Origin: a virus
Taxonomy: Duplodnaviria; Heunggongvirae; Uroviricota; Caudoviricetes
Length of the DNA: 18,947 nt
Strand: one strand, 5' to 3'
Virus record (IMG/VR): IMGVR_UViG_2547132415_000019
Location: 1 to 18,947 of that record
Numbering within the stretch: the stretch's first letter is position 1; each line of letters begins with the position of its first letter. The translations under genes were made by a program, and so were the position numbers. Positions 1,136 through 14,941 of this stretch are shown here, in pieces. The notes beneath the pieces are model-generated. The model was not told the origin of the DNA. It did no database searches and saw only the letters and a list, made by a program, of their open reading frames with translations.

Positions 1136-2476
1136 TCATTGGAGCAAGAAAACTTTTAAGGTGTTTTTGAATATTCTAACAGGGTCTTCTACACCTGCAT
1201 TTCCTTTTAAAATATGATAATCACTTATTTCAGCCCATCTGTTTTTTTCATCGTTTTCAGAAGGAAGTAAAGGAGAACCTTCTGGCATATATTTATAAGT
1301 TATACCAAATAATGCATAATAGTAGATGTTGATGTTATATTGATCTGTCTGATATGGGAGTCTATTAACACCGAAGAAATTGATTATTAATTGTGCATCT
1401 ATTTTATCTTCTACGTAGTTAAGGGCCAGTTCACGACCAAACGAATAAAGAATTACTGCAAGGGTTCGATAACAGCAATAGCCTGGTATAAATTTATTGC
1501 TGATTTCATTTTGAGATAAAATTTGATAAATTTCTAGATATCTTGATAAGGTTTCAACTTCCCGTAGCGACAAGCCTTTTAGTTCGATAAATTTTTGAAC
1601 TATATGAATACTACTTTCTCCAATTTCTTTTAGTCTTTCAGACTCGTTACATAGCATTCTAAAATGAGAGTTCGAAGCCAAAATTTTATCGTAATTGTTT
1701 TCAGTGAAAGTCACTGGCAGGCTGTAAGTGAATTTTATAAATTTATCAAGATATCTTTCTGAGTCAACACCTGCACCGTAAATATGATTTATTGATGCTT
1801 TCAATTGTGAGATGTTAGCAACTAACAAGAAGTTAAGATTTTCAGTGTCAAAAACATGTTTTATATTTTCGATGATAGAGATGGCAAAGCTTGGTTTACA
1901 ACGGTCAAGTTCGTCAATGATAATTGTTATTTTATTTTCGCTAGTTAGTTCAGCAAGTACTTCCTTGAGAGCAAGCAAATGTTTCTTTGCTTCAATATGA
2001 TCATCAAGCAGTGCTTCTACAGTACCATCTATAGCTGAGTTAGCCGCATCTTTAATAGCATCTTCGAATTCATCCGCAATATCATCTGCATTTTGTTTTA
2101 AAATCCACCCAGCGCCAGCTTTGAGTACAGTTTTAAGTCCAAATCTCAATGCTGGTAATGCCTTTGATATTAATTCCTTCTTTTCACTCTCTGGATATAA
2201 TGCAACTATTGCAGCCATTATAGTAAGTATGGGAGCATCATTATGATCTTCAGTAAATGCATCAATATATACTACTTTATGCCCAGATTCATTTTTTTCA
2301 ATCAATGCCGCTAATTTTTTTGAAAATTCGGTTTTACCGGTACCCCAGTCCCCATCGATAACAATAGGGGATATTTTTAAGGGGGACTCGAGTAAGCTTA
2401 TTATTTTTTCAGCAATGATTTTTCTATTATACTCATCTCTGTTTTCAAAAGTCATATCATTATTCATATGAAGCAA
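1136..2476 (-). CDS. KAP-family P-loop NTPase (cargo gene)
   Basis: 446 aa. Walker A GDWGTGKTEF; Walker B-like hydrophobic stretch ITIIIDELDRC; an Ala/Gly/Leu-rich segment between them (ALPALRFGLKTVLKAGAGWIL) as in KAP NTPases. Markedly AT-rich by eye compared with the phage core. Confidence 0.8.
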   Translation of the reverse strand: MLHMNNDMTFENRDEYNRKIIAEKIISLLESPLKISPIVIDGDWGTGKTEFSKKLAALIEKNESGHKVVYIDAFTEDHNDAPILTIMAAIVALYPESEKKELISKALPALRFGLKTVLKAGAGWILKQNADDIADEFEDAIKDAANSAIDGTVEALLDDHIEAKKHLLALKEVLAELTSENKITIIIDELDRCKPSFAISIIENIKHVFDTENLNFLLVANISQLKASINHIYGAGVDSERYLDKFIKFTYSLPVTFTENNYDKILASNSHFRMLCNESERLKEIGESSIHIVQKFIELKGLSLREVETLSRYLEIYQILSQNEISNKFIPGYCCYRTLAVILYSFGRELALNYVEDKIDAQLIINFFGVNRLPYQTDQYNINIYYYALFGITYKYMPEGSPLLPSENDEKNRWAEISDYHILKGNAGVEDPVRIFKNTLKVFLLQ

Positions 2477-2687: not shown

Positions 2688-3257
2688 TTAATAATTGACG
2701 ATCGCGCTTCTAATTTTTCCTATGATATCAATTTCATCTATTTTGCATTCAAAGGAACTGCTGCCGCCATCGACATTTAGACGACGTCCCGGCAGTCTTG
2801 TCAGATTCCTGATAGCAACCTCGCCATCAATATCAACGATCCACTTACCATCACGTACATCCTCATAATCCGAATCACAGATAAACTCTGATGCGCCATC
2901 GATCACAACAAAAGGTTTTTTTAGTTTTTCAGGCAAAAAGTTGTTGTCGAAAATGTAGTAACCATCAGGAAGTAGTTTTCCGCTTGATAAAATCTTCCTT
3001 TCGATCTCTTTTGTGTTTTCTTTTTGTGAACTTTCTTTTGAACCTTGCCCAGTAGTTAGCCACTCTAGCGACGTGCCGGTTTCAAGTGCACATTGGATTA
3101 CCCATTCTGCCGGGAATGAATCACGCATATAGCGCGTGGCTAAGGTGCTTTTAGAAATGCCCAAATGATCACACAAAGCTTGTCTTGTCTTGAAACCATA
3201 GGCTTCAACCATGCGCTCTATGGCCCCACGACCGCCTTTTTCCAAATTCATGGTCAC
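2688..3257 (-). CDS. cI: CI-type immunity repressor (phage 186 CI-like)
   Basis: 189 aa, transcribed divergently from the lytic operon. N-terminal region ([28 protein letters not shown]...[16 protein letters not shown]) resembles the 186 CI N-terminal domain as I recall it. GGAG about 6 nt upstream of the ATG on the minus strand. Confidence 0.8.
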
Positions 3258-3630: not shown

Positions 3631-4140
3631 ATGTTTGACTATCGCATTTCAAAACATCCCCATTTCAATGAAGCCTGCCGGGCCTTCGCCCTACGACACA
3701 ACATGGCGAAGCTGGCAGAGCGCGCAGGTATGAACGTTCAAACCTTGCGTAACAAGCTCAACCCGGAACAACCACACCAACTTACTGCGTCAGATATCTG
3801 GCAGTTAACCGATCTCACTGAAGACCCAACACTGGTTGATGGATTTCTGGCTCAGATTCACTGCCTGCCATGTATACCGGTAAATGAGGTGGCAAAAGAG
3901 AGACTGCCACATTACGTCATGAGTGCAACCGCAGAGATCGGGCGTGTTGCTGCAGGTGCGGTTTCTGGCGATGTAAAAACCAGTGCAGGCCGTCGCGATG
4001 CGATCAGCAGCATTAATTCTGTAACACGACTGATGGCGCTGGCGGCTGTTTCATTGCAGGCCCGTTTACAGGCTAATCCTGCGATGGCGAGTGCAGTTGA
4101 TACCGTGACTGGCCTCGGTGCTTCATTCGGTTTGCTGTGA
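3631..4140 (+). CDS. cII: CII-like transcriptional activator (phage 186 CII family)
   Basis: 169 aa. Strongly resembles 186 CII as recalled (MFD..SKHPH..EACRAFA.RHNMAKLAERAGMNVQTLRNKLNPEQPHQ...LTDLTED.TLVDGFLAQIHCLPC...NPAM.S.VDT..G.GASFGL). Same length and position as in 186. Confidence 0.8.
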   Translation: MFDYRISKHPHFNEACRAFALRHNMAKLAERAGMNVQTLRNKLNPEQPHQLTASDIWQLTDLTEDPTLVDGFLAQIHCLPCIPVNEVAKERLPHYVMSATAEIGRVAAGAVSGDVKTSAGRRDAISSINSVTRLMALAAVSLQARLQANPAMASAVDTVTGLGASFGLL

Positions 4141-4970: not shown

Positions 4971-5204
4971 ATGCGTAATATTGAAACCCTCACGACTAAA
5001 ACCGGACCGGATGACGCAGGGCTTAATATTTTACTGACAGAGGCTCGTCTGGAAGAACGCCGGGCAAGGGCTGAAGCAATGGCAGCTCGCCTTGATAGCC
5101 TGGCGTGTCATATCTCATCCCGTCAGCTAAACCACGTGGAAGCGGCAGAACTGCTGCGTGTGACTGCTGAAGCAATCCAGAACGAAGCGCAGGAGATCCA
5201 CTAA
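4971..5204 (+). CDS. Hypothetical early protein (about 77 aa, predicted helical/coiled)
   Basis: CAGGAGAA about 7 nt upstream of the ATG at 4971. Its stop overlaps the next start (TAATG). Confidence 0.55.
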   Translation: MRNIETLTTKTGPDDAGLNILLTEARLEERRARAEAMAARLDSLACHISSRQLNHVEAAELLRVTAEAIQNEAQEIH

Positions 5205-5431
5205 TGGCTGATGCAATGGATCTCGTACAGCAGCGCGTTGAAGAAGAACGCCAGCGCCATATCCGTGCTGCCCGTGCCAAAACGCCGGGCGTGTCCCGCG
5301 TGCTTTGCGTTGAGTGTGAAGCGCCAATTCCGCCAGCACGCCGCCGTGCCATTCCGGGTGTGCAGCTTTGCATTACCTGTCAGGAAATCGCAGAGCTGAA
5401 AGGCAAACATTACAACGGGGGTGCTGTATGA
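5204..5431 (+). CDS. TraR/DksA-type C4 zinc-finger protein (P2 orf82-like)
   Basis: 75 aa with C-x2-C ... C-x2-C (CVECEAPIPPARRRAIPGVQLCITCQ), typical of phage TraR-like proteins at this position. Confidence 0.8.
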   Translation: MADAMDLVQQRVEEERQRHIRAARAKTPGVSRVLCVECEAPIPPARRRAIPGVQLCITCQEIAELKGKHYNGGAV

Positions 5432-6285
5432 GCACCATCCTGAAATGGGCGGGAAATAAAACCGCCGTAATGTCCGAACTGAAAAAACATCTTCCTGCTG
5501 GTCCGCGACTAGTTGAACCTTTCGCGGGTTCCTGTGCTGTGATGATGGAGACGGATTATCCCTGCTATCTGGTTGCGGATATTAATCCTGATTTAATCAA
5601 CCTCTATAAAAAGGTTGCCGCTGATTGTGAATCGTTTATATCTCGCGCCAAAGTTTTATTTGAGATCGCAAACAGGGAGGTGGCTTATTACAACATAAGG
5701 CAGGAGTTTAATTACTCAACTGAAATTACTGATTTCATGAAAGCGGTATATTTCCTGTATCTCAATCGTCACGGTTACCGTGGGTTATGTCGCTATAACA
5801 AGAGCGGGCATTTCAACATTCCCTACGGTAATTATAAAAATCCGTATTTCCCTGAAAAAGAAATTCGCGCTTTTGCAGAAAAAGCCCAGCGAGCAACGTT
5901 TATCTGCGCCAGCTTTGATGAAACGCTGGCGATGTTGAAGGCGGGGGATGTGGTGTATTGCGATCCGCCTTATGACGGTACGTTTTCCGGCTATCACGCT
6001 GACGGCTTTACTGAAGATGACCAGTATCACCTGGCATCCGTTCTTGAACATCGGTCATCAGAAGGACATCCGGCCATTGTTTCTAACAGTGACACATCCC
6101 TGATCCGTTCGCTGTATCGCAATTTTACTCACCACTATATCAAGGTAAAACGCAGCATCGGCGCAGCAGCTGGTGAGAGTAAATCAGCAACAGAAATCAT
6201 TGCTGTTTCCGGACCGCGCTGCTGGGTGGGATTTGATTATTCGCGTGGCGTGGATAGTTCTGCCGTGTACGGAGTACGTGCATGA
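5428..6285 (+). CDS. dam: DNA adenine (N6) methyltransferase, Dam-like
   Basis: N-terminal SAM-binding region (LKWAGNK ... [10 protein letters not shown]) and catalytic DPPY motif (VYCDPPYDG). ATG at 5428 overlaps the upstream stop (ATGA) and its own stop overlaps the A start. Confidence 0.85.
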
Positions 6286-8696
6286 GCCATGCCGATATGA
6301 GCAACTGCTGCGGCTTTAACGAGGCTGCCGCATCGTTCTCATGGAACAGCCCGAAAAAGGCCATTAACCCTTATCTGGACCCGGCGGAAGTTGCGCCGGT
6401 TTCTGCGCTTTCAAACCTGATCACTCTGTACGCTGCCGATAACGAGCAGGAACAACTGCGCCGCGAGGCACTGAGTGATCAGGTCTGGGAGCGTTATTTC
6501 TTTAATGAATCCCGTGATCCTGTCCAACGCGAAATAGAGCAGGATAAGCTCATTAGCCGGGCAAAGTTGGCGCATGAGCAGCAGCGTTTTAACCCGGACA
6601 TGGTCATTCTGGCAGACGTCAGCGCCCAGCCCTCCCATATCAGCAAGCCGCTGATGCAACGTATTGAATACTTCAGCAGCCTGGGCAGGCCAAAGGCTTA
6701 TTCCCGCTATTTACGTGAGACGATTAAGCCATGTCTGGAACGACTGGAGCATGTACGCGACAGCCAGCTATCTGCATCTTTTCGTTTTATGGCAAGCCAT
6801 GTAGGGCTGGACGGCCTGCTGATTCTGCCTGAAATGAGTCAGGATCAGGTGAAACGCCTGTCTACCCTTGTCGCTGCGCATATGAGCATGTGCCTTGATG
6901 CAGCTTGTGGTGATTTGTATGCCACCGATGACGTTAAGCCAGAAGAAATCCGCAAGACATGGGAAAAGGTGGCAGCGGAAACCCTGCGTCTGGATGTCAT
7001 CCCGCCTGCGTTTGAGCAACTCCGCCGGAAAAGAAACCGCCGTAAACCCGTGCCCTATGAACTCATTCCGGGTTCGCTGGCGCGTATGTTGTGCGCCGAC
7101 TGGTGGTACCGGAAATTATGGAAAATGCGTTGCGAATGGCGGGAAGAGCAGTTGCGTGCTATCTGCCTGGTCAGCAAAAAAGCATCTCCCTATGTCAGCT
7201 ATGAAGCCGTGATGCATAAACGTGAGCAGCGCCGCAAGTCACTGGAGTTTTTCCGTTCTCATGAACTGGTGAACGAAGAGGGCGACACGCTGGATATGGA
7301 AGACGTGGTAAACGCCAGCAGCAGCAACCCGGCGCACCGCCGCAATGAGATGATGGCCTGTGTTAAAGGTCTGGAGCTTATCGCGGAAATGCGCGGTGAC
7401 TGCGCCGTTTTCTACACCATTACCTGTCCGTCACGTTTCCATTCCACGCTCAATAACGGCAGACCAAACCCAACTTGGACAAATGCGACGGTAAGACAAA
7501 GCAGCGATTATCTGGTCGGCATGTTTGCTGCATTTCGTAAGGCGATGCACAAAGCCGGGTTGCGCTGGTATGGCGTGCGGGTGGCTGAGCCGCATCATGA
7601 CGGTACAGTTCACTGGCACCTGTTGTGTTTCATGCGCAAAAAAGACCGCCGCGCCATTACTGCATTGTTGCGTAAGTTTGCCATCCGTGAAGACCGCGAG
7701 GAACTGGGTAATAACACTGGTCCACGCTTTAAATCTGAGCTGATAAACCCGCGCAAAGGAACGCCGACAAGCTACATCGCGAAATACATCAGTAAGAACA
7801 TTGACGGGCGTGGTCTGGCTGGCGAGATCAGCAAGGAAACGGGTAAATCCCTGCGTGATAACGCTGAATACGTTAATGCCTGGGCGTCTCTGCATCGTGT
7901 TCAGCAATTCCGCTTCTTTGGTATTCCGGGACGTCAGGCTTACCGTGAACTTCGCTTGCTGGCTGGTCAGGCGGCAAGGCAACAGGGTGACAAAAAAGCA
8001 GGTGCGCCGGTACTGGATAACCCGCGCCTTGATGCCATTCTGGCTGCTGCTGATGCTGGTTGTTTTGCCACCTACATCATGAAGCAGGGCGGCGTACTGG
8101 TTCCCCGCAAATATCACCTCATCAGAACCGCTTATGAAATCAACGAAGAGCCAACCGCCTATGGCGATCACGGTATTCGTATTTATGGCATCTGGTCACC
8201 CATTGCAGAGGGCAAGATCTGCACTCATGCAGTGAAGTGGAAAATGGTTCGTAAGGCCGTTGACGTTCAGGAGGCGGCAGCCGACCAGGGCGCTTGCGCC
8301 CCTTGGACTCGTGGCAATAACTGTCCCCTTGCTGAAAATTTGAACCAACAAGGGAAAGACAAATCAGCTGATGGGGATACCAGAACGGACATTACCCACA
8401 TGGATGACAAGGAGTTGCACGATTACCTGCACAGTATGAACAAAAAAGAGCGCCGGGAACTGGCTGCAAGGTTACGCCTGGTGAAACCGAAACGGCGTAG
8501 AGACTACAAACAGCGAATTACAGACCATCAACGACAGCAGCTCGTCTATGAACTGAAGTCCAGAGGATTTGATGGCAGCGAGAAAGAGGTCGATTTACTC
8601 CTTCGCGGCGGCAGTATTCCGTCAGGAGCAGGCCTGCGTGTCTTCTATCGGAACCAGCGTTTGCAGGAAGATGATAAGTGGCGGAACCTGTATTAA
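6282..8696 (+). CDS. A: Replication initiation endonuclease (P2 gpA-like rolling-circle protein)
   Basis: 804 aa. [12 protein letters not shown]-type tyrosine motif and HWHLL His motif as in P2 A-family proteins; position after the early operon. Confidence 0.85.
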
Positions 8697-8790
8697 TTAC
8701 GCGGGTTAACAATTCGTGCTCTTAATAATACCAGGCATATCAGGCTGATGAACGTAAAAAAACGTTTTACATCAGTAAGATTATCATATA

Positions 8791-8806
8791 CTGTAAATAT
8801 AAACAG
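8791..8806. promoter_or_regulatory. LexA (SOS) box CTGTAAATATAAACAG overlapping a sigma70-like promoter
   Basis: Exact CTGT-N8-ACAG with an AT-rich core. Upstream TTTACA (8766-8771) and TATACT (8787-8792) could be -35/-10. A second degenerate half-site (ACAG at 8818-8821) follows. Confidence 0.7.
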
Positions 8807-8849
8807 TGGTTATCTATACAGTATTGTTTGCGGTGTCATAGGAGGAAAG

Positions 8850-9038
8850 ATGCAGGACTATTTTTTGGAGTCTTTGAAGCTCCAGCGCATTGATTTTTTT
8901 CTTAAGCTTGTAGCGGCTAGTGAGTGTAGTGATGAAGAGAAGGGGCTGGCCCTGCAGTGGGTTTCTGAATTGACTGATGAACTCATGGCAAAAATCAGAA
9001 GCCACGAATACAACCGCTCAATGGATGTCATCAGCTGA
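8850..9038 (+). CDS. Small hypothetical protein, first gene of the SOS-controlled module (possible Tum-like N-terminal part)
   Basis: GGAGG 4-5 nt upstream of the ATG at 8850; 62 aa. The ORF-track start at 8748 would read through the promoter and LexA box, so it is unlikely. Confidence 0.5.
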   Translation: MQDYFLESLKLQRIDFFLKLVAASECSDEEKGLALQWVSELTDELMAKIRSHEYNRSMDVIS

Positions 9039-9048
9039 GGTGACTTTT

Positions 9049-9282
9049 ATGCGCATTGAAATAATGATCGATAAAGAGCAGAAGATTAGCCAGTCTACCC
9101 TGGACGCTCTGGAGTCCGAGCTTTACCGCAACCTGCAACCCATCTATCCCAAGACCGCTATCCGCATCCGTAAAGGGTCGGCAAACGGCGTTGAGCTGAG
9201 TGGCTTAAAGCTTGATGAAGACAAAAAGCGGGTGATGGAAATTATGCAACAGGTTTGGGAAGACGACAGCTGGCTGCACTAA
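9049..9282 (+). CDS. DinI-family protein (phage Tum/MsgA-like, SOS-associated)
   Basis: 77 aa starting MRIEIMIDKEQKISQSTLDALESELYRNLQ ... EDDSWL, matching the DinI fold pattern (MRIEV...L...EL..R......WE..D.W). GAGGTG upstream of the ATG. Confidence 0.8.
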   Translation: MRIEIMIDKEQKISQSTLDALESELYRNLQPIYPKTAIRIRKGSANGVELSGLKLDEDKKRVMEIMQQVWEDDSWLH

Positions 9283-9400
9283 GGAACGTTCCTGATGTAA
9301 GAACTTGAATCTGACGTCAGCAAGGTTGAACAACGAGAGTAGCGAGGCGTTAGCCATGGGTAAAAAAGACAGTAATCACCAGATTATTTATCGGGGCTAG

Positions 9401-9616
9401 GTGCTGGAACGTTTAACCCTTGGCGACTGGGTCTTCTTTCAACGCCCAAAGGAGTGTGGCGGAGGTTTTTGGTTGGGCCGCATCTATGAAGACTGCTTCT
9501 GGCTTGAGCTGGAATTCCCCGTTTCGCTATATGACGGCCTGGGGTTTTTGATGGAAGTCACTAGGGTAGAGCAGAGAAGTGATGAGGTTGACGCGAATTA
9601 TCCCCTGTTTGATTAA
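9401..9616 (+). CDS. Hypothetical small protein (71 aa, GTG start)
   Basis: ORF only; no recognisable motif. Confidence 0.35.
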   Translation: MLERLTLGDWVFFQRPKECGGGFWLGRIYEDCFWLELEFPVSLYDGLGFLMEVTRVEQRSDEVDANYPLFD

Positions 9617-9664: not shown

Positions 9665-10276
9665 ATGGATTTAGTCTTTAAAGTTCTGGCTTCGTTGGGT
9701 GGGGTGTCTTTTGTTGCATCTGGCATATTTGTTTGGATCGGGAAAGTTTATTTAGAAAGATATAAGTCGCGGCTAAACAAAGATATTGCTGAATTTCAAT
9801 CACAACTGAGTGCAACTAATGAAAGAATAAAGGCTAAGTTAGACAATTCTGTTTATGTAACGAAAGCGTATTTTGATAAGGAGTTATCAGCATATAGTCT
9901 CATTTGGAATTCGATGTTTGAAACCAGAGAAAGCGTGCTTAAGCTGAGGCCTGCGCTGGATCATGTTGACCCCAACGAACCATTTGAAGAGAGAAAATTT
10001 AGAAGGTTGAAAGTTTTTTCTGATGCATTTAACACTTTTGTTACAAGTGTTGAATCTAACAAACCGTTCATCTCACCAGAGGTTTATATAATCTTGGACC
10101 GTTTCCGGAAGGAATGCCTTTCAGAGTCAATATCGTTTAAGCATAGCGATCCAGAATTTGACGGGCAAAATTATTGGAAAGAGGCGGAGTTGAACCATAC
10201 AACCATCATCAAGCTTTTTGATGAGACGTGTGATGCAATTCGAGACAGGATGCACACATTAACTGTGGTTACGTAG
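9665..10276 (+). CDS. Single-pass membrane protein with N-terminal TM helix and coiled-coil-like region (cargo; function unknown)
   Basis: 203 aa. Residues about 5-27 are hydrophobic (VLASLGGVSFVASGIFVWIG). AT-rich. G-rich stretch upstream of the ATG. Confidence 0.65.
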   Translation: MDLVFKVLASLGGVSFVASGIFVWIGKVYLERYKSRLNKDIAEFQSQLSATNERIKAKLDNSVYVTKAYFDKELSAYSLIWNSMFETRESVLKLRPALDHVDPNEPFEERKFRRLKVFSDAFNTFVTSVESNKPFISPEVYIILDRFRKECLSESISFKHSDPEFDGQNYWKEAELNHTTIIKLFDETCDAIRDRMHTLTVVT

Positions 10277-10368
10277 GTTTCCAAAAAGTCTCGATGCCCG
10301 CTTTGGAGATTGTGCATGTCTATGCCGCATGAATCCGCATGATCGTTTGAGGATCGTTTTAGCTGAGG

Positions 10369-10392
10369 CCCGCCAGGAGTGGCGGGATTTTG
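10369..10392 (+). terminator. Candidate intrinsic terminator downstream of the membrane-protein gene
   Basis: CCCGCC (10369-10374) / GGCGGG (10381-10386) stem with 6-nt loop, followed by ATTTTG. Confidence 0.35.
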
Positions 10393-10585
10393 CTTATGTC
10401 ATGCAGGCGCATGAAAACCGCTACATAAAGCGGGCAGGCGTGGCGGGGATACGAGCGCGCGCTAACTCTTGGCTTTGTTTCATAATCAAAAATGTGATCA
10501 TTGAGATTATTCTGAATTTTATGTTTGTCTATGAAATATCATTTCGCTTAACATTGTTTGAGTTAGGACTACATGAGAATAAAGA

Positions 10586-11161
10586 ATGCTTTTACCCGTA
10601 AGTGTTACATCGTGTGGCTTGTATCACCCCTACTGGCATTTGGGAGAGCGCAACCCTCATAGCGATGAACTATCAAGGCAGATGATGGATTTTAAGGATG
10701 AAAATAATCGTAATCATCAAAGGGCTATTAACCGTTTTTCTCGATTAGCTATAGATAAGGTTGGGCGGTTAGTAATCAGAGGTGGCGGTGGGCGTTTTGT
10801 TGAGTCTCCTTTTTCGATAGCAGTCGTCCCATCTCACACTGAAGGCAGAATTTCACCGGCTTTGATTGAGGTCGCCGAGCGAATCGTAAATGTTCACCGT
10901 CGGGGCATTGTTGATTGCTGTTTGGAAAGAACACGCACTGTTCCTAGCGCACATCGTGAAGGAGGAGATCGCTCAATTACTGGTCACATGTCTAGTATCA
11001 GAGTTAGGGGTGGTAACCTCATGGGGCGAAATGTGTTACTACTAGATGATGTTAAAACAACAGGCGGTAGTTTGTCTGCGTGTTTTTATTTACTGGAGTC
11101 TGCAGGAGCTGGAGTTATAATGCCATTAGCTCTGCTAGAAACTGCAAACTATGAGGAGTAG
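10586..11161 (+). CDS. Phosphoribosyltransferase (PRTase)-domain protein, ComF-like (start uncertain)
   Basis: C-terminal type I PRTase PRPP-binding signature NVLLLDDVKTTGGSL. 191 aa. Stop overlaps the DprA-like start. AT-rich. Confidence 0.75.
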   Translation: MLLPVSVTSCGLYHPYWHLGERNPHSDELSRQMMDFKDENNRNHQRAINRFSRLAIDKVGRLVIRGGGGRFVESPFSIAVVPSHTEGRISPALIEVAERIVNVHRRGIVDCCLERTRTVPSAHREGGDRSITGHMSSIRVRGGNLMGRNVLLLDDVKTTGGSLSACFYLLESAGAGVIMPLALLETANYEE

Positions 11162-12125
11162 CAAAGTGCACTCAGAAGAATTAAAAAATACACTTGGATT
11201 AGCTATTCAAATCGGGAAGCTAGCATCTGATCAAAGTGTATTGAAATTCTTTGAGCTTATTGATTTTGATGTTATTCGTGATATACGCGACTTAACTGAG
11301 ATGGTTAATAGCCACGGGTTTCTAAAAGATAAAATATCTGAGACTGATTTTCTAATAGCGAATGCTGAATTGGAGAACCACCATGTTAATGGTGTGGAGC
11401 TAATACCATATGGGTCTGAATTCTATCCTCTTAGTTTAGCGTTTACTCCTAATCCACCATCAATTCTCTACATAAAAGGGGATAAAAGTATACTAAAAGA
11501 ATTGCCGGGTGTCGCAATTGTAGGATCCCGTGATACTTCCCCTGCAGGGGAAGAAATAACGAGGCGAATCACTAATCAGATAGTGTCTGCTGGGTATATT
11601 GTTGTAAGTGGGTTAGCAATAGGCACTGATGCGAATGCTCATAAGGCAACGTTACAAGCAAAAGGAAAAACCATTGCTGTCTTGGCGCATGGTCTTGAGG
11701 AGGCTAAGCCGAAGCAAAACAGTCGACTTGCTCAAGAGATTCTGGATAAAGGTGGTGCATGGATTTCTGAGTATCCTATGGGTCGACCGGCCCAGAAACA
11801 ATCATTTGTACAAAGAAATCGGATACAAGTTGGATTATCTGCAGGTTCAATTTTAATCGAGGCTGCGTTAAATAGCGGAACGATAACTCAAGCTGAGTTT
11901 GCAAATAAGGCGAAAAGACCAGTGTTTGCGGTTGTACCTCACCTACCTAATAATCCGCTTAATCTTAATTGTGAGGGAACAGTTGATTTAGTTAAGAGCA
12001 ACATGGCTAGAGCGTTAAAAACAAAACGGGATTATGATGATGTGATTATGATCATAAATGAGTCTCGGGAGTATTTGTTAGAGCTAAAATGGCCAGGGAA
12101 ACAGAGTACATTAGACTTGATTTAA
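11151..12125 (+). CDS. DprA/Smf-like (SLOG superfamily) Rossmann-fold protein (alternative GTG start at 11166)
   Basis: 324 aa. GVAIVGSRDTSPAGEE ... VVSGLAIGTDANAHKATL matches the DprA motif pattern (G.R......G ... SGLA.GID..AH). ATG overlaps the PRTase stop by 11 nt; GAGGAG precedes the GTG at 11166. Confidence 0.8.
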   Translation: MRSSKVHSEELKNTLGLAIQIGKLASDQSVLKFFELIDFDVIRDIRDLTEMVNSHGFLKDKISETDFLIANAELENHHVNGVELIPYGSEFYPLSLAFTPNPPSILYIKGDKSILKELPGVAIVGSRDTSPAGEEITRRITNQIVSAGYIVVSGLAIGTDANAHKATLQAKGKTIAVLAHGLEEAKPKQNSRLAQEILDKGGAWISEYPMGRPAQKQSFVQRNRIQVGLSAGSILIEAALNSGTITQAEFANKAKRPVFAVVPHLPNNPLNLNCEGTVDLVKSNMARALKTKRDYDDVIMIINESREYLLELKWPGKQSTLDLI

Positions 12126-12149: not shown

Positions 12150-13178
12150 CTAAATTTGATATCTCTCGAATTTTATAATTTCTTCACCGCTCCAATGATT
12201 AAATTCTTTCATTCTTTTTTGTAATGGTAATAATTCATTTTTCACAAATACCTTACTAGCTTTTTCTACATCCCCAAATCCCCCAACATTATTAGGCATT
12301 ATCCCCATCATCTGTGGCGGAACGCGATGTGCTGCCATCATGTCATCCCGGCTCACGTTCTTGATATTTAGAAACTCATCCTTCGCCGCAACTTCTGACA
12401 AAGGGATGATCTGAAGGCCGTCCTTTTTGCCGTTAGGCGAGTACATAAACAGGTTGCGGAAGTTACCCGGACCTTTGGCACTTTTCATTGCATTGCGGAG
12501 GTTGTTCACGTCCTCCTGGTTCTGCGCAGCATCGGTCATGTACATGATGAAGCCTGCATGACTACCGTTAATGTAATACTTGCGGCGGAACAGCGTGGCG
12601 GACTCATTGAGCAGGGCGGACGGAATGGCAGAAAGATAGCCGGGCAGGCCGTAGATCTCCTGGTTAATGTCCGGTTCCATCAGATGAAAAATGCTGCCTT
12701 TCGTGAACTGATACGGCTGGGTTGTCATACCGTATTGCACAAACCAGTAGGTATCCAGGTCTAACCCGCGTCGGGTGTATTTTGCCAGAGCAGGCTCAAG
12801 GGCGATAACTTCACCGAAGCGGTTCGTGCGTTTCTCCAGGTAGGCGTTACCAAATACCAGATAGTCCTGCACAAAACGTGAAAAAGCCTGCTGGCTGAGC
12901 AGCGGGTGAGGGATGTAGGTACTGGTCAGAATGTTGCATTTTACTGCAATCGGTGAGCTGTGATGCACGGCAGCGCGGAAGGTTCGTGCCAGTCCGTCAA
13001 AGCTGACGGGCGGCTCATACCAGCGGTCCATCTGTACGCATTCCACATAGTCCAGCAGTTCACGGCGGTCCAGAACAGGAACGGGATCGCCAAAGCTGAA
13101 TGCTTCGGCTGAAGTCTGGCTTTTATGCTTGAGCTGATTCGTCGCCGCAGCGCGGTTTTTCTTACTCTTTCCCATCAA
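12150..13178 (-). CDS. Q: Portal protein (P2 gpQ-like)
   Basis: 342 aa. Position and orientation, with its start overlapping the stop of the upstream terminase gene, are as in P2; N-terminal region resembles gpQ as recalled. Confidence 0.85.
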   Translation of the reverse strand: MMGKSKKNRAAATNQLKHKSQTSAEAFSFGDPVPVLDRRELLDYVECVQMDRWYEPPVSFDGLARTFRAAVHHSSPIAVKCNILTSTYIPHPLLSQQAFSRFVQDYLVFGNAYLEKRTNRFGEVIALEPALAKYTRRGLDLDTYWFVQYGMTTQPYQFTKGSIFHLMEPDINQEIYGLPGYLSAIPSALLNESATLFRRKYYINGSHAGFIMYMTDAAQNQEDVNNLRNAMKSAKGPGNFRNLFMYSPNGKKDGLQIIPLSEVAAKDEFLNIKNVSRDDMMAAHRVPPQMMGIMPNNVGGFGDVEKASKVFVKNELLPLQKRMKEFNHWSGEEIIKFERYQI

Positions 13179-14941
13179 AAAATCTCCACAATATTGCTGG
13201 TATTGGCGGATTCGCCCTGCAGCGGTTCGTTAAACAGTGCGTGCATCGTTGCCCAGGCCAGATCGGCGTGGCTGGCTTCTTCGCTGCGGCTGGCTTCATA
13301 GGTCGGGCGGTTGCCGCTGGCGGTGGTGGCGCGACGGATTGCCATGAATGACTGCGCAATGTCGGTGTGCCCGGCGTCAAACTCCAGACGGCGGTGGCTG
13401 ATAATGTCGTAGGCCTTGAGTACCAGGGCGTTTTTAACATTGGGGTTGTAGACAAACTCCCGGACGGCAGGAAAGAACGCTTTCACGTTCTCATAAACCC
13501 CGTGACCAACGCCGGTTGAGTCGATACCGATATAGGTCACGTTGTACTGTTCGGTGAGTTTTTTGATGGCGTCAGCCTGGGCGCGGAAGTCCATCCCGCG
13601 CCACTGGTGACGCTCAAGAATGCGGAACTTACCACCCGGCACGGCTGGCGGAGCCACCACCACGCATCCGGCACTGTCGCCGTTCTGCGTACCTTTTGCC
13701 GGGTCATAACCGATCCACACTTCGCGCCAGCCAAACGGGCGCAGGGCCAGTGCATGAAAGTCGGTCCAGACTTCCCAGCTGTCCACCATGCACGCCTGCA
13801 GTTCGCTGAGCGGGAACACGGACGCGAGATCGTCCACGAACTCGCACATCAGCAGGTTCTGGTATTCGTCCGGGCTGTACTCCATGCGTAGCTGGTCGAG
13901 GTCGAACAGGTTACAGCCGCCGCGCACCGCATCTTCCACGGTGACTATCTGGCGGTATTGCCCGTCTGCGCACAGCAGGCCGGGGGCCAAATTGCTGTGG
14001 GACAGGTCGATGTCCACCTTGTCAGCTTTGTTGCGTCCACGGTTGAACAGCGCACCGGACCAGAACGGATAAGCACTGTGGGTCAGGCTGGATGGCGTGG
14101 AAAAATAGGTTTGTCGCCATTTTTTGTGAATAGCCATCCCGGAAGCCACTTTGCGCAGCTCCTGGAATTTCGGTATCCAGAAATATTCATCCAGATACAG
14201 GTTGCCGTGATAACTCTGGGCCGTGCGGGCATTGGTGCCGAGGAAGTAAAGCGTGGCTCCGTTAGGAAGCACCATCGGATCGCCTTTTAGCTCCACCTCG
14301 ACTTCTTTGGCGAAGTCGATGATGTATTGTTTAAAGACGTGGGCCTGAGCCTTACTGGCAGAAAGGAAAATCTGGTTACGTCCGGTAAGCAGGGCGTCAA
14401 TCAGGGCTTCACGGGCAAAATAGAAGGTCGCGCCGATCTGGCGTGACTTCAGCAGGTTGCGGATGCGGTTGGTTTTTCCGGCTTCCCACCAGTGGCGCTG
14501 GTAGTTGAACATGGAGGAATGGAAGATTTCTTCCAGCTTCTCAATCTGCTCATCGGTGAAAACATTCTTTTCCGGCTGACGGTGTGGGCCTTTATTGCGG
14601 TTGGCGACGTTAGGGTTTAAGTCGGCTTCGTTGCCGCCATTGTTAAACTTGCCGATCCGCGCGTGGCGCTCAGACTGGCGCGCCAGCAGGTCAATCTCTT
14701 TGAAATCTTTCCCTTCTTTGTGCTCCTTCATAATGAGCTGGCAGTAGCGTGCGGCGGTGGTGAGCTGCATCTGATCCAGCGGCCCATAGTCACCCCACTT
14801 GTCGCGTTTTTTCCAGCTGTGAACGGTTGCAACTTTCTCGCCCAGCATTTCAGCAATGCGGGCTACGCGGTATCCCTGAAAGTACAGCAGCATGGCCTGC
14901 CGACGGGGATCGAGATCTGCGGGTGTCAGTGTGGTGTTCAT
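13175..14941 (-). CDS. P: Terminase large (ATPase) subunit (P2 gpP-like)
   Basis: 588 aa, same size class as P2 P; divergent from O; overlaps the Q start (ATGA). Confidence 0.85.
   Translation of the reverse strand: MNTTLTPADLDPRRQAMLLYFQGYRVARIAEMLGEKVATVHSWKKRDKWGDYGPLDQMQLTTAARYCQLIMKEHKEGKDFKEIDLLARQSERHARIGKFNNGGNEADLNPNVANRNKGPHRQPEKNVFTDEQIEKLEEIFHSSMFNYQRHWWEAGKTNRIRNLLKSRQIGATFYFAREALIDALLTGRNQIFLSASKAQAHVFKQYIIDFAKEVEVELKGDPMVLPNGATLYFLGTNARTAQSYHGNLYLDEYFWIPKFQELRKVASGMAIHKKWRQTYFSTPSSLTHSAYPFWSGALFNRGRNKADKVDIDLSHSNLAPGLLCADGQYRQIVTVEDAVRGGCNLFDLDQLRMEYSPDEYQNLLMCEFVDDLASVFPLSELQACMVDSWEVWTDFHALALRPFGWREVWIGYDPAKGTQNGDSAGCVVVAPPAVPGGKFRILERHQWRGMDFRAQADAIKKLTEQYNVTYIGIDSTGVGHGVYENVKAFFPAVREFVYNPNVKNALVLKAYDIISHRRLEFDAGHTDIAQSFMAIRRATTASGNRPTYEASRSEEASHADLAWATMHALFNEPLQGESANTSNIVEIF

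What the first reader, a model, noticed from the sequence alone, without database searches (positions are those of the whole stretch)
10586..12125. Translationally coupled PRTase + DprA/Smf-like pair in the P2 A-Q cargo hotspot: candidate anti-phage system
Two overlapping AT-rich genes encode a protein with a type I phosphoribosyltransferase PRPP-binding signature (VLLLDDVKTTGGSL) and a DprA/SLOG-type Rossmann protein (SGLAIGTDANAHKATL). They occupy the slot between the replication gene A and the portal gene Q where P2 carries tin/old, a position known to hold interchangeable defence cargo in P2-like prophages. SLOG domains are proposed nucleotide sensors (ThsA of Thoeris has one) and PRTase domains occur as effectors in some retron and other defence operons. 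From memory, a DprA-like + PRTase pair was among the hotspot systems tested by Rousset and colleagues (2022), so this is probably a variant of a barely characterised system rather than a new one; I cannot verify that here. The mechanism is unknown as far as I know.
Basis: partly seen in the sequence, partly recalled or inferred. Interest (0 to 1): 0.8.

Follow-up and report, generated by a model that had tools for sequence, protein, structure and literature searches.

The report
Short-toxin ShosTA-like phage defence pair
This P2-like prophage carries a two-gene toxin-antitoxin module (a small PRPP-binding enzyme plus a DprA-like DNA-binding protein) that is an untested, stripped-down relative of ShosTA, an anti-phage system whose mechanism has already been partly worked out.

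Summary
Two co-oriented genes sit at 10586-11161 (191 aa, type I PRTase fold) and 11151/11166-12125 (324/319 aa, DprA-like). They are AT-rich and lie between replication gene A and portal gene Q of a P2-like prophage.

PADLOC profiles call them ShosT (3.6e-14) and ShosA (2.8e-70). ShosTA is a known type IV toxin-antitoxin abortive-infection system. Rousset 2022 validated it from this same P2 hotspot, and the 2025 and 2026 papers give structures and a partial mechanism.

This pair is not the characterised form:
- The toxin lacks the N-terminal HAD/pyrophosphatase domain (191 vs 424 aa).
- It shares only the PRPP loop with ShosT in sequence.
- Gene order is reversed (toxin first).
- The module lies on the Q side of cos rather than the A side.

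The same pair recurs in P2-like, Mu-like and lambdoid prophages and in a P4-like satellite, never in competence loci. Both genes are under strong purifying selection. RefSeq usually leaves the toxin ORF unannotated.

Verdict: an untested minimal-toxin variant of a known defence family. It is a real feature of modest novelty.

The parts
6282..8696 (+). Replication gene A (gpA). Left boundary of the P2 cargo hotspot.
   Evidence: Pfam Phage_GPA 1.4e-127
10369..10386 (+). Terminator-like GC-rich hairpin followed by a T-run. It probably ends transcription from the upstream cargo genes, so the pair would need its own promoter.
   Evidence: Consensus scan; sequence. Function is inferred.
10437..10455 (.). 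cos core (GGCGTGGCGGGGATACGAG), homologous to the P2 cos GGCGAGGCGGGGAAAGCAC
   Evidence: Alignment with the APEC O1 cos region, E. coli LP50-1 and Pectobacterium. A pattern scan shows the same core about 150 nt upstream of the pair in L001, L003-5 and SopEPhi L014.
10456..10585 (+). AT-rich leader between cos and the toxin gene. Presumed to hold the module's own promoter.
   Evidence: No + strand sigma-70 consensus was found by the simple scan. Inference only. The 90-aa ORF at 10329-10601 that spans this stretch also crosses the terminator-like hairpin and cos and has no family hits, so it is judged non-coding.
10586..11161 (+). Short ShosT-like / ComFC-like PRTase, the putative toxin (191 aa). 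PRPP loop is 149-VLLLDDVKTTGGS-161 with D154/D155. Flexible-loop motif GDRS(x3)H at 127-134 is invariant.
11153..11158 (+). GAGGAG Shine-Dalgarno inside the 3' end of the toxin gene, 7 nt upstream of GTG 11166. Supports translational coupling.
   Evidence: Sequence. Homologue N-termini align to residue 6 of the ATG-started ORF.
11151..12125 (+). ShosA-like / DprA-like protein, the putative antitoxin (324 aa from ATG 11151, or 319 aa from GTG 11166). It has an N-terminal helical domain, a Rossmann DprA core, ssDNA-binding arginines R127 and R222, and a disordered C-terminal tail at 311-324.
   Evidence: Pfam DNA_processg_A 1.4e-60. PADLOC ShosA PDLC03961 2.8e-70. 36% identity to APEC O1 ShosA, E 6e-35. 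AF2 pLDDT 92.1. Foldseek DprA 3maj and ShosA 8zva, TM 0.70-0.74.
12150..13178 (-). Portal gene Q. Right boundary of the hotspot. Its stop codon lies 24 nt from the stop of the DprA-like gene (convergent).
   Evidence: Pfam Phage_portal; ORF list.

Best explanation
The pair is a minimal-toxin relative of the ShosTA type IV toxin-antitoxin abortive-infection system, carried as cargo next to cos in a P2-like prophage.

Proposed working, by analogy with the characterised system:
1. ORF1 is a stand-alone PRPP-binding phosphoribosyltransferase.
2. Its PRPP-dependent activity perturbs nucleotide metabolism and DNA replication and is toxic to the cell.
3. ORF2 is a dimeric DprA-like ssDNA-binding protein made from the same transcript by coupled translation.
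4. ORF2 neutralises the damage indirectly, through ssDNA binding and RecA-linked recombination and repair.
5. When an infecting phage shuts off host gene expression, or floods the cell with ssDNA replication intermediates, the labile antitoxin is lost or titrated.
6. The toxin then stops replication of both cell and phage.

What is shown here: the gene pair, the two folds, the conserved PRPP-loop DD and ssDNA-binding arginines, obligate co-occurrence of the two genes, a cargo location in mobile elements, and purifying selection.

What is inferred by homology: toxicity, antitoxin action, the trigger, and the anti-phage phenotype.
For: Profile and sequence evidence.
- PADLOC ShosT and ShosA profiles hit the two proteins at 3.6e-14 and 2.8e-70. 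PsyrT/PsyrA score lower.
- ORF2 is 36% identical to APEC O1 ShosA over 198 aa (6e-35).
- ORF2 keeps ShosA's two essential ssDNA arginines (R139 maps to R127, R234 to R222) and the RecA-contact K200 (maps to K188).

Structural evidence.
- The ORF2 model has the ShosA layout: an N-terminal helical domain, a DprA Rossmann core, an extra C-terminal helix and a disordered tail at 311-324. In ShosA the disordered C-terminus confers instability.
- The PRPP-loop DD (D154/D155) corresponds to ShosT D331/D332, whose mutation abolishes toxicity.
- In ShosT the PRTase domain is the dominant toxic activity. The PPase mutant only marginally reduces toxicity. A PRTase-only toxin is therefore plausible.

Family and context evidence.
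- A profile of the ORF1 family also retrieves HAD+PRTase and PsyrT-like fusions, and all of these hit the same ShosT profile.
- The two genes are adjacent in every locus where the PRTase is at least 40% identical.
- Those loci are P2-like prophages of E. coli, Salmonella (SopEPhi orf14/15) and Pectobacterium, a Mu-like prophage of Shewanella, a P4-like satellite of Hafnia, and the end of a lambdoid prophage in Atlantibacter.
- The characterised ShosTA itself came from this P2 hotspot and protects against T7 and lambda.
Against: - No experiment exists for this short form. Every published assay found here used the 424-aa ShosT from APEC O1 or KTE181.
- Sequence similarity of ORF1 to ShosT is confined to the generic PRPP loop, and the long-ShosT profile PDLC03012 does not hit it.
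- ShosA residues for dimerisation (L181/F182) and one RecA contact (R206) are not conserved.
- Gene order is reversed relative to APEC O1.
- The acceptor substrate of even the characterised ShosT is unknown, so the chemistry of toxicity is not established for any member.
Confidence: 0.7

Rival explanations
1. The pair is a phage-borne ComFC-DprA-like DNA-handling module. The two proteins would bind each other and ssDNA, as ComFC and DprA do in natural transformation. They would serve the prophage directly, for example by protecting or recombining its own ssDNA intermediates or by diverting incoming foreign DNA. There would be no toxin-antitoxin relationship.
Against: The 4-Cys zinc finger that defines ComFC is absent. 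No comFA, comEC or other competence gene is nearby in any of the loci examined. The module sits in variable cargo slots of four kinds of mobile element, where defence genes cluster. The closest characterised PRTase + DprA-like pairs (ShosTA, PsyrTA/RqlHI) are all toxin-antitoxin pairs.
Confidence: 0.12
2. The pair is purely an addiction module. It stabilises the prophage or satellite in the lineage by post-segregational killing and has no role in excluding other phages.
For: The toxin-antitoxin logic is the same as in the best explanation. The module travels with mobile elements. A copy also persists in a degraded island in 11 E. coli genomes.
Against: Integrated prophages do not segregate as plasmids do. 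The homologous ShosTA from the same hotspot gives 10^6-fold protection against T7. This role is not exclusive of defence.
Confidence: 0.08
3. One reading: ORF2 is a SLOG-type nucleotide sensor (as in Thoeris ThsA) that detects a signalling nucleotide and activates the PRTase effector.
For: Weak Pfam hit to SLOG cluster4 (22.7 bits, below the cut-off). DprA belongs to the SLOG superfamily. Rousset 2022 speculated that DprA senses phage DNA and activates the PRTase.
Against: The ORF2 fold matches DprA and ShosA at TM 0.70-0.74 but ThsA at only 0.35. The ssDNA-binding arginines are conserved. In ShosTA the DprA-like protein is the antitoxin, not an activator, and the toxin is toxic on its own. 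No signal-generating enzyme is encoded nearby.
Confidence: 0.07

Closest known systems
ShosTA (E. coli APEC O1 / KTE181): Kimelman 2012; Rousset 2022 'DprA + PRTase' pFR105; Millman 2022; Pu 2025 (PDB 8ZVA-D); Yang 2026
   Same: A two-gene operon of a PRTase-domain protein and a DprA-like protein. Carried in the P2 gpA-gpQ hotspot next to cos. PRPP-loop DD conserved. The ShosA-like protein is 36% identical, keeps R139/R234/K200 equivalents, and has the same domain layout and a disordered C-terminal tail. PADLOC ShosT/ShosA profiles hit both proteins.
   Different: The toxin is 191 aa rather than 424 aa, with no N-terminal HAD/pyrophosphatase domain. Sequence similarity to ShosT is limited to 44 residues around the PRPP loop. 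The long-ShosT profile PDLC03012 does not hit it. Gene order is T then A instead of A then T. The module is on the Q side of cos and co-oriented with gpA, instead of on the A side and convergent with gpA. ShosA dimer-interface residues L181/F182 and RecA contact R206 are not conserved. This form has not been tested.
ComFC + DprA of natural transformation (H. pylori ComFC, PDB 7P0H)
   Different: No 4-Cys zinc finger. The comF profile scores 25.5 bits against a cut-off of 233.55. There is never a competence gene neighbourhood. The pair sits in prophage and satellite cargo slots.
PsyrTA / RqlHI (RecQ-like helicase-PRTase toxin + DprA-like antitoxin)
   Same: The same pairing of a PRTase-domain toxin with a DprA-like antitoxin. 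PsyrT and PsyrA profiles give secondary hits (4.9e-06 and 1e-30). A 708-aa PsyrT-like protein is retrieved by the ORF1 family profile.
   Different: No helicase domain. Only the C-terminal PRTase part of the 689-position PsyrT profile is matched. ShosA scores well above PsyrA (235 vs 105 bits).
[quoted passage not shown]
   Same: A short (~193 aa) stand-alone PRTase paired with a SLOG/DprA-superfamily protein in the same hotspot.
   Different: Its partner there is a 185-aa minimal SLOG protein, not a 320-aa DprA with an N-terminal domain. Its PRTase matches ORF1 only in the PRPP loop and scores 33 bits on the ShosT profile.

Membership tests
ShosTA | Adjacent, co-oriented genes for a PRTase-domain protein and a DprA-like protein | tested here: met
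   ORFs 10586-11161 and 11151/11166-12125. Folds confirmed. The two genes are adjacent in all 11 related contexts.
ShosTA | Match to ShosT and ShosA profile HMMs used by defence-finding tools | tested here: met
   PDLC03962 ShosT 3.6e-14 (51 bits, profile positions 62-211 of 237). PDLC03961 ShosA 2.8e-70. The profile specific to the characterised long ShosT (PDLC03012, which APEC O1 ShosT hits at 914 bits) gives no hit at E<=0.1.
ShosTA | ShosT architecture: N-terminal HAD-like pyrophosphatase domain (1-164) fused to the PRTase domain (165-424) | tested here: not met
   ORF1 is 191 aa and the length is conserved across the family. There is no HAD/PPase hit. The upstream 90-aa ORF has no family hit and spans cos.
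ShosTA | PRPP-loop acidic pair needed for toxicity (ShosT D331/D332) | tested here: met
   D154/D155 align to D331/D332. D155 is invariant and D154 is at least 90% conserved.
ShosTA | ShosA ssDNA-binding arginines essential for antitoxin activity (R139, R234) | tested here: met
   R127 and R222 align to them and are invariant in 28 homologues. R261 maps to E249 and is not conserved, but R261E is tolerated in ShosA.
ShosTA | ShosA RecA-contact residues (K200, R206) and dimer interface (L181/F182) | tested here: inconclusive
   K200 maps to K188 (conserved). R206 maps to A194 and L181/F182 map to Q169/A170 (not conserved).
ShosTA | Intrinsically unstable antitoxin, through a disordered C-terminal tail | tested here: inconclusive
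   The AF2 model has a low-confidence tail at 311-324, with pLDDT <50 for 319-324. This resembles the disordered 316-328 of ShosA. Protein stability cannot be computed.
ShosTA | T is toxic, A neutralises it without stable binding, and the pair protects against phage | not testable with these tools
   Needs expression and plaque assays. Only the long form has been tested.
ComFC/DprA competence proteins | ComFC N-terminal 4-Cys zinc finger | tested here: not met
   There is a single cysteine (C10) in the first 100 residues of ORF1. It is invariant among the 16 closer homologues but not across the wider family. No CxxC pairs are present.
ComFC/DprA competence proteins | Curated equivalog scores (TIGR00201 comF; TIGR00732 dprA) | tested here: not met
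   comF 25.5 bits against a cut-off of 233.55. dprA 186.4 bits against a cut-off of 191.15.
ComFC/DprA competence proteins | Chromosomal competence-gene context | tested here: not met
   All contexts examined are prophage, satellite or islet cargo positions.
PsyrTA/RqlHI | Toxin is a RecQ-like SF2 helicase fused to a C-terminal PRTase (~690 aa) | tested here: not met
   ORF1 matches only positions 577-686 of the 689-position PsyrT profile. No helicase domain is present.
Thoeris-type SLOG sensor + effector | SLOG domain acting as a nucleotide-signal receptor, with a signal-producing partner | tested here: not met
   ThsA matches at TM 0.35, against 0.70-0.74 for DprA and ShosA. No TIR or cyclase gene is nearby.

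The most novel reading that the evidence does not exclude
The short PRTase + DprA-like module may not be just 'ShosTA minus a domain'. It could be a separately domesticated ComFC-DprA competence pair. In that case the ComFC-like protein would act on, or together with, ssDNA and the DprA-like partner through direct contact, as ComFC and DprA do in transformation. It would not poison purine metabolism. Under this reading, phage ssDNA replication intermediates would be the direct trigger, and the whole ShosTA/PsyrTA clade would descend from the DNA-uptake machinery.
Probability: 0.2. Interest if true: 0.55.

Novelty: new variant of a known kind. Interest (0 to 1): 0.32.

Why it matters
ShosTA is one of the few defence systems in which a DNA-repair-type protein acts as the antitoxin. 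The substrate of its PRTase toxin is still unknown.

A natural minimal version, with only the ~190-aa PRTase domain, offers a simpler handle on two questions:
- which part of ShosT is sufficient for toxicity;
- whether the pyrophosphatase domain is dispensable.

Its closeness to ComFC also gives a concrete evolutionary hypothesis: that a competence ComFC-DprA pair was recruited for defence.

There is a practical point as well. The module is present in 34 of 5426 complete E. coli genomes, including the reference EPEC strain E2348/69, and in Salmonella phage SopEPhi. Yet the toxin ORF is usually missing from RefSeq annotation. Protein-based defence finders run on those annotations would see only an orphan 'DprA' and would under-count the system.

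Tried and rejected
1. Is ORF1 a truncated or frameshifted long ShosT whose N-terminus lies in the upstream 90-aa ORF (10329-10601)? Rejected. That ORF has no family hit, spans the terminator-like hairpin and the cos core, and its sequence is conserved as cos-flanking DNA in phages that lack the pair. The ~190-aa length is conserved family-wide.

2. A sequence route from ORF1 to ShosT. phmmer against PDB found nothing at E<=0.01. A profile search against PDB and hhalign found only the PRPP loop. Residue mapping of ShosT H240/K280/R285 onto ORF1 was therefore not possible.

3. Rousset's supplementary tables were searched for the exact window peptides. Nothing was found, and the hotspot table is truncated in the stored copy.

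4. The Kimelman 2012 paper is not held, so the architecture of the original Shewanella ShosT could not be checked.

5. The genome-contig scan failed with the wide alignment. With a narrower alignment it returned only four loci, two of them informative.

6. Promoter scan: no + strand sigma-70 consensus lies between cos and ORF1.

7. Rfam and tRNA scans of the window found nothing.

It was redone with database homologues.
Full report
**Observation.** The region is AT-rich, with GC 0.38-0.44 against 0.53-0.64 in the structural genes to the right.

The surroundings are a P2-like prophage:

| Coordinates | Strand | Gene |
|---|---|---|
| 1-1053 | - | integrase |
| 2688-3257 | - | CI-type repressor |
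| 3631-4140 | + | CII-like regulator |
| 5368-6285 | + | Dam-type methylase |
| 6282-8696 | + | gpA |
| 8977-9282 | + | DinI-like |
| 12150-13178 | - | portal Q |
| 13175-14941 | - | terminase P |

So the pair is in the gpA-gpQ cargo region.

**What the proteins are: ORF2.**
- It is an unambiguous DprA-family protein: Pfam DNA_processg_A 1.4e-60, and TIGR00732 at 186.4 bits, just under its cut-off.
- Its AlphaFold model is confident (pLDDT 92.1). It shows an N-terminal helical domain (4-79), the DprA Rossmann core, an extra C-terminal helix (292-310) and a disordered tail (311-324).
- The best PDB matches are R. palustris DprA (TM 0.74) and ShosA from E. coli APEC O1 (TM 0.70). Thoeris ThsA reaches only 0.35.

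**What the proteins are: ORF1.**
- It falls below Pfam's Pribosyltran threshold (18.6 vs 26.3 bits) but is clearly a type I PRTase.
- The PRPP loop VLLLDDVKTTGGS is conserved across a family of ~190-aa proteins.
- The model is confident (pLDDT 90.4).
- Foldseek puts ShosT (8ZVC/8ZVD/8ZVB) and H. pylori ComFC at the top (TM 0.50-0.54), ahead of housekeeping PRTases at about 0.4.

**Assignment to a known system.** PADLOC's profiles name the two proteins ShosT (PDLC03962, 3.6e-14) and ShosA (PDLC03961, 2.8e-70). PsyrT and PsyrA are weaker second hits.

What is published on ShosTA:
- It was first seen as a toxin-antitoxin pair.
- Rousset et al. then validated it as an anti-phage system. They cloned 'DprA + PRTase' (pFR105) from the P2 hotspot of E. 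coli APEC O1 and found protection against T7 and lambda.
- Pu et al. 2025 showed that ShosT (424 aa) has an N-terminal pyrophosphatase domain and a C-terminal PRTase domain. D331A/D332A abolishes toxicity, while the pyrophosphatase mutant barely matters.
- The same paper showed that ShosT disturbs purine metabolism and causes DNA duplications and filamentation. ShosA binds ssDNA, is unstable through its C-terminus, and does not bind ShosT. T7 Gp0.7 host shut-off triggers the system.
- Yang et al. 2026 added that ShosA is a dimer, that R139 and R234 are essential for ssDNA binding and antitoxin activity, and that it binds RecA through K200 and R206.

**How the window pair differs from the characterised ShosTA.** I retrieved the APEC O1 locus and compared the two.
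- *Toxin.* The window toxin is 191 aa and has no HAD/pyrophosphatase domain. BLASTP and hhalign align only 43-44 residues around the PRPP loop. PDB sequence searches put ShosT no higher than ordinary PRTases. The PADLOC profile built on the long ShosT (PDLC03012, which APEC O1 ShosT hits at 914 bits) does not hit ORF1.
- *Antitoxin.* The antitoxin-like proteins are 36% identical over the DprA core. ShosA R139, R234 and K200 are conserved as R127, R222 and K188. R206, R261 and the dimer residues L181/F182 are not.
- *Gene order.* It is toxin then antitoxin here, and antitoxin then toxin in APEC O1.
- *Position relative to cos.* The cos core is GGCGTGGCGGGGATACGAG at 10437-10455, which aligns with the P2-type cos of APEC O1. 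The window pair begins about 150 nt to the right of cos and ends 24 nt from the stop codon of Q. APEC O1 ShosTA lies on the other, gpA-proximal side of cos and is transcribed towards gpA.

**Start codon of ORF2.** The 11-nt overlap depends on ATG 11151. Homologues mostly begin at the equivalent of GTG 11166, which is preceded by GAGGAG at 11153-11158 inside the end of ORF1. Either way the two genes are translationally coupled.

**Is the short form a real, conserved module?** Yes.
- Homologues of ORF1 at 40-99% identity are all ~190 aa.
- A profile search of 1.84 billion representatives finds 201 clusters at E<1e-30 and 1269 at E<1e-10. Most are 178-195 aa stand-alone proteins.
- A minority are fused to HAD (P0116), TPR (P0155) or a PsyrT-like N-terminal region (P0061). 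All of them hit the same ShosT profile.
- In every locus with an ORF1 homologue of at least 40% identity, a ~320-aa DprA-like gene follows immediately.
- dN/dS between the window and the 76%-identical E. coli copy is 0.07 (toxin) and 0.06 (antitoxin).
- PHROGs holds both proteins as families of unknown function, phrog_7188 and phrog_4299.

The contexts where the pair was found:

| Context | Organism / locus |
|---|---|
| P2-like prophage | E. coli |
| P2-like prophage | Pectobacterium |
| P2-like prophage | metagenomic contig L012 |
| P2-like phage | Salmonella SopEPhi, orf14/orf15, annotated 'unknown' |
| Mu-like prophage, between mor and the lysis genes | Shewanella algae |
| P4-like satellite, next to its cos | Hafnia |
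| Distal end of a lambdoid prophage | Atlantibacter |
| Small chromosomal islet | Pseudidiomarina |
| Degraded island | E. coli |

None of these is a competence locus.

**Prevalence and annotation.**
- The pair occurs in 34 of 5426 complete E. coli genomes: 12 at 99% identity or more, 11 at about 98.9% and 11 at about 76%. The ~98.9% group includes EPEC E2348/69.
- In 21 of the 22 full-length near-identical copies, RefSeq annotates only 'DNA-processing protein DprA'. The intact toxin ORF is left out. In E2348/69 that ORF is 191 aa with one substitution.

**Mechanism.** I commit to a ShosTA-like type IV toxin-antitoxin abortive-infection mechanism (confidence about 0.7).
- The stand-alone PRTase binds PRPP through D154/D155 and the invariant GDRS...H loop. 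It is toxic by disturbing nucleotide metabolism and replication.
- The DprA-like protein counteracts the damage through ssDNA binding and RecA-linked repair.
- Phage-induced shut-off, or phage ssDNA, removes or titrates the labile antitoxin.
- A PRTase-only toxin is credible because the PRTase, not the pyrophosphatase, is the dominant toxic activity in ShosT.
- All functional steps are inferred by homology. The folds, key residues, gene linkage, mobile-element cargo context and selection are shown here.

**Rivals.**
- *A pure addiction module (0.08).* This is not exclusive of defence.

**Novelty and score.** This is a variant of a known, mechanistically studied defence family. It is already captured by the broad ShosTA profiles of defence-finding tools.

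It differs from everything tested so far in four ways:
- its architecture (no pyrophosphatase domain);
- its sequence (under 20% identity to ShosT in structural alignment);
- its gene order;
- its insertion site.

I rate it 'new variant of a known kind', interest 0.32.

The most novel reading not excluded is that it is an independently domesticated ComFC-DprA pair that works through direct ssDNA and partner contacts rather than metabolic poisoning (probability about 0.2).

Noticed in passing
window 1136-2476 (-): A 446-aa KAP-family P-loop NTPase sits in a very AT-rich stretch (GC 0.31-0.35) between the integrase (1-1053) and the CI repressor (2688-3257). It matches the PADLOC candidate defence family PDC-S20 at 1.1e-171, with weaker hits to PifA and QatA. 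This is a second likely defence cargo gene in the same prophage, in a different slot.
   Followed up: partly
window 10586-11161; L001 5275-5850; L019 3001-3576: The intact 191-aa PRTase (toxin) ORF is not annotated by RefSeq/PGAP in 21 of the 22 full-length near-identical E. coli copies, including E2348/69. Only the DprA-like gene is called. Protein-based defence finders run on these annotations would miss the system.
   Followed up: partly
window 10437-10455, and L003/L014/L008/L010: The cos core lies about 150 nt upstream of the pair in E. coli, SopEPhi and Pectobacterium P2-like phages. In packaged DNA the module would therefore sit at the extreme left end, between cos and Q. The characterised APEC O1 ShosTA is on the opposite side of cos. 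In a Hafnia P4-like satellite the order is cos, then an FRG-domain gene, then the pair.
   Followed up: yes
window 9665-10276 (+): A 203-aa ORF with a predicted N-terminal hydrophobic helix, and no Pfam, NCBIfam or PADLOC hit. It matches phrog_26391 (unknown function) at 1.6e-140. It is 97.6% identical at DNA level in Escherichia phage Cartapus, and an 80% copy lies upstream of the pair in the degraded island L002. It is absent from the 99% copies of the pair, so it is probably independent cargo.
   Followed up: partly
window 8748-9616 (+): Further small cargo genes lie between gpA and cos: a phrog_698 ORF (8748-9038), a DinI-like protein (8977-9282, Pfam 3.8e-24) and a 71-aa phrog_2100 ORF (9401-9616). 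The DinI-like protein is 96% identical to SopEPhi orf11.
   Followed up: no
window 5368-6285 (+): A D12-class N6-adenine (Dam-type) orphan methyltransferase lies immediately upstream of gpA and overlaps it (Pfam 3.8e-74; PADLOC orphan MTase 7.9e-110). It is probably a phage anti-restriction or replication-timing function.
   Followed up: no
L011 (cyanobacterial contig, Symplocastrum), 5001-5885: A more distant 294-aa homologue of the PRTase has no adjacent DprA-like gene. It sits among small unknown genes near an 'NTase-conflict' gene and a Hypoth_Ymh gene. The PRTase domain is therefore also used with other partners.
   Followed up: no
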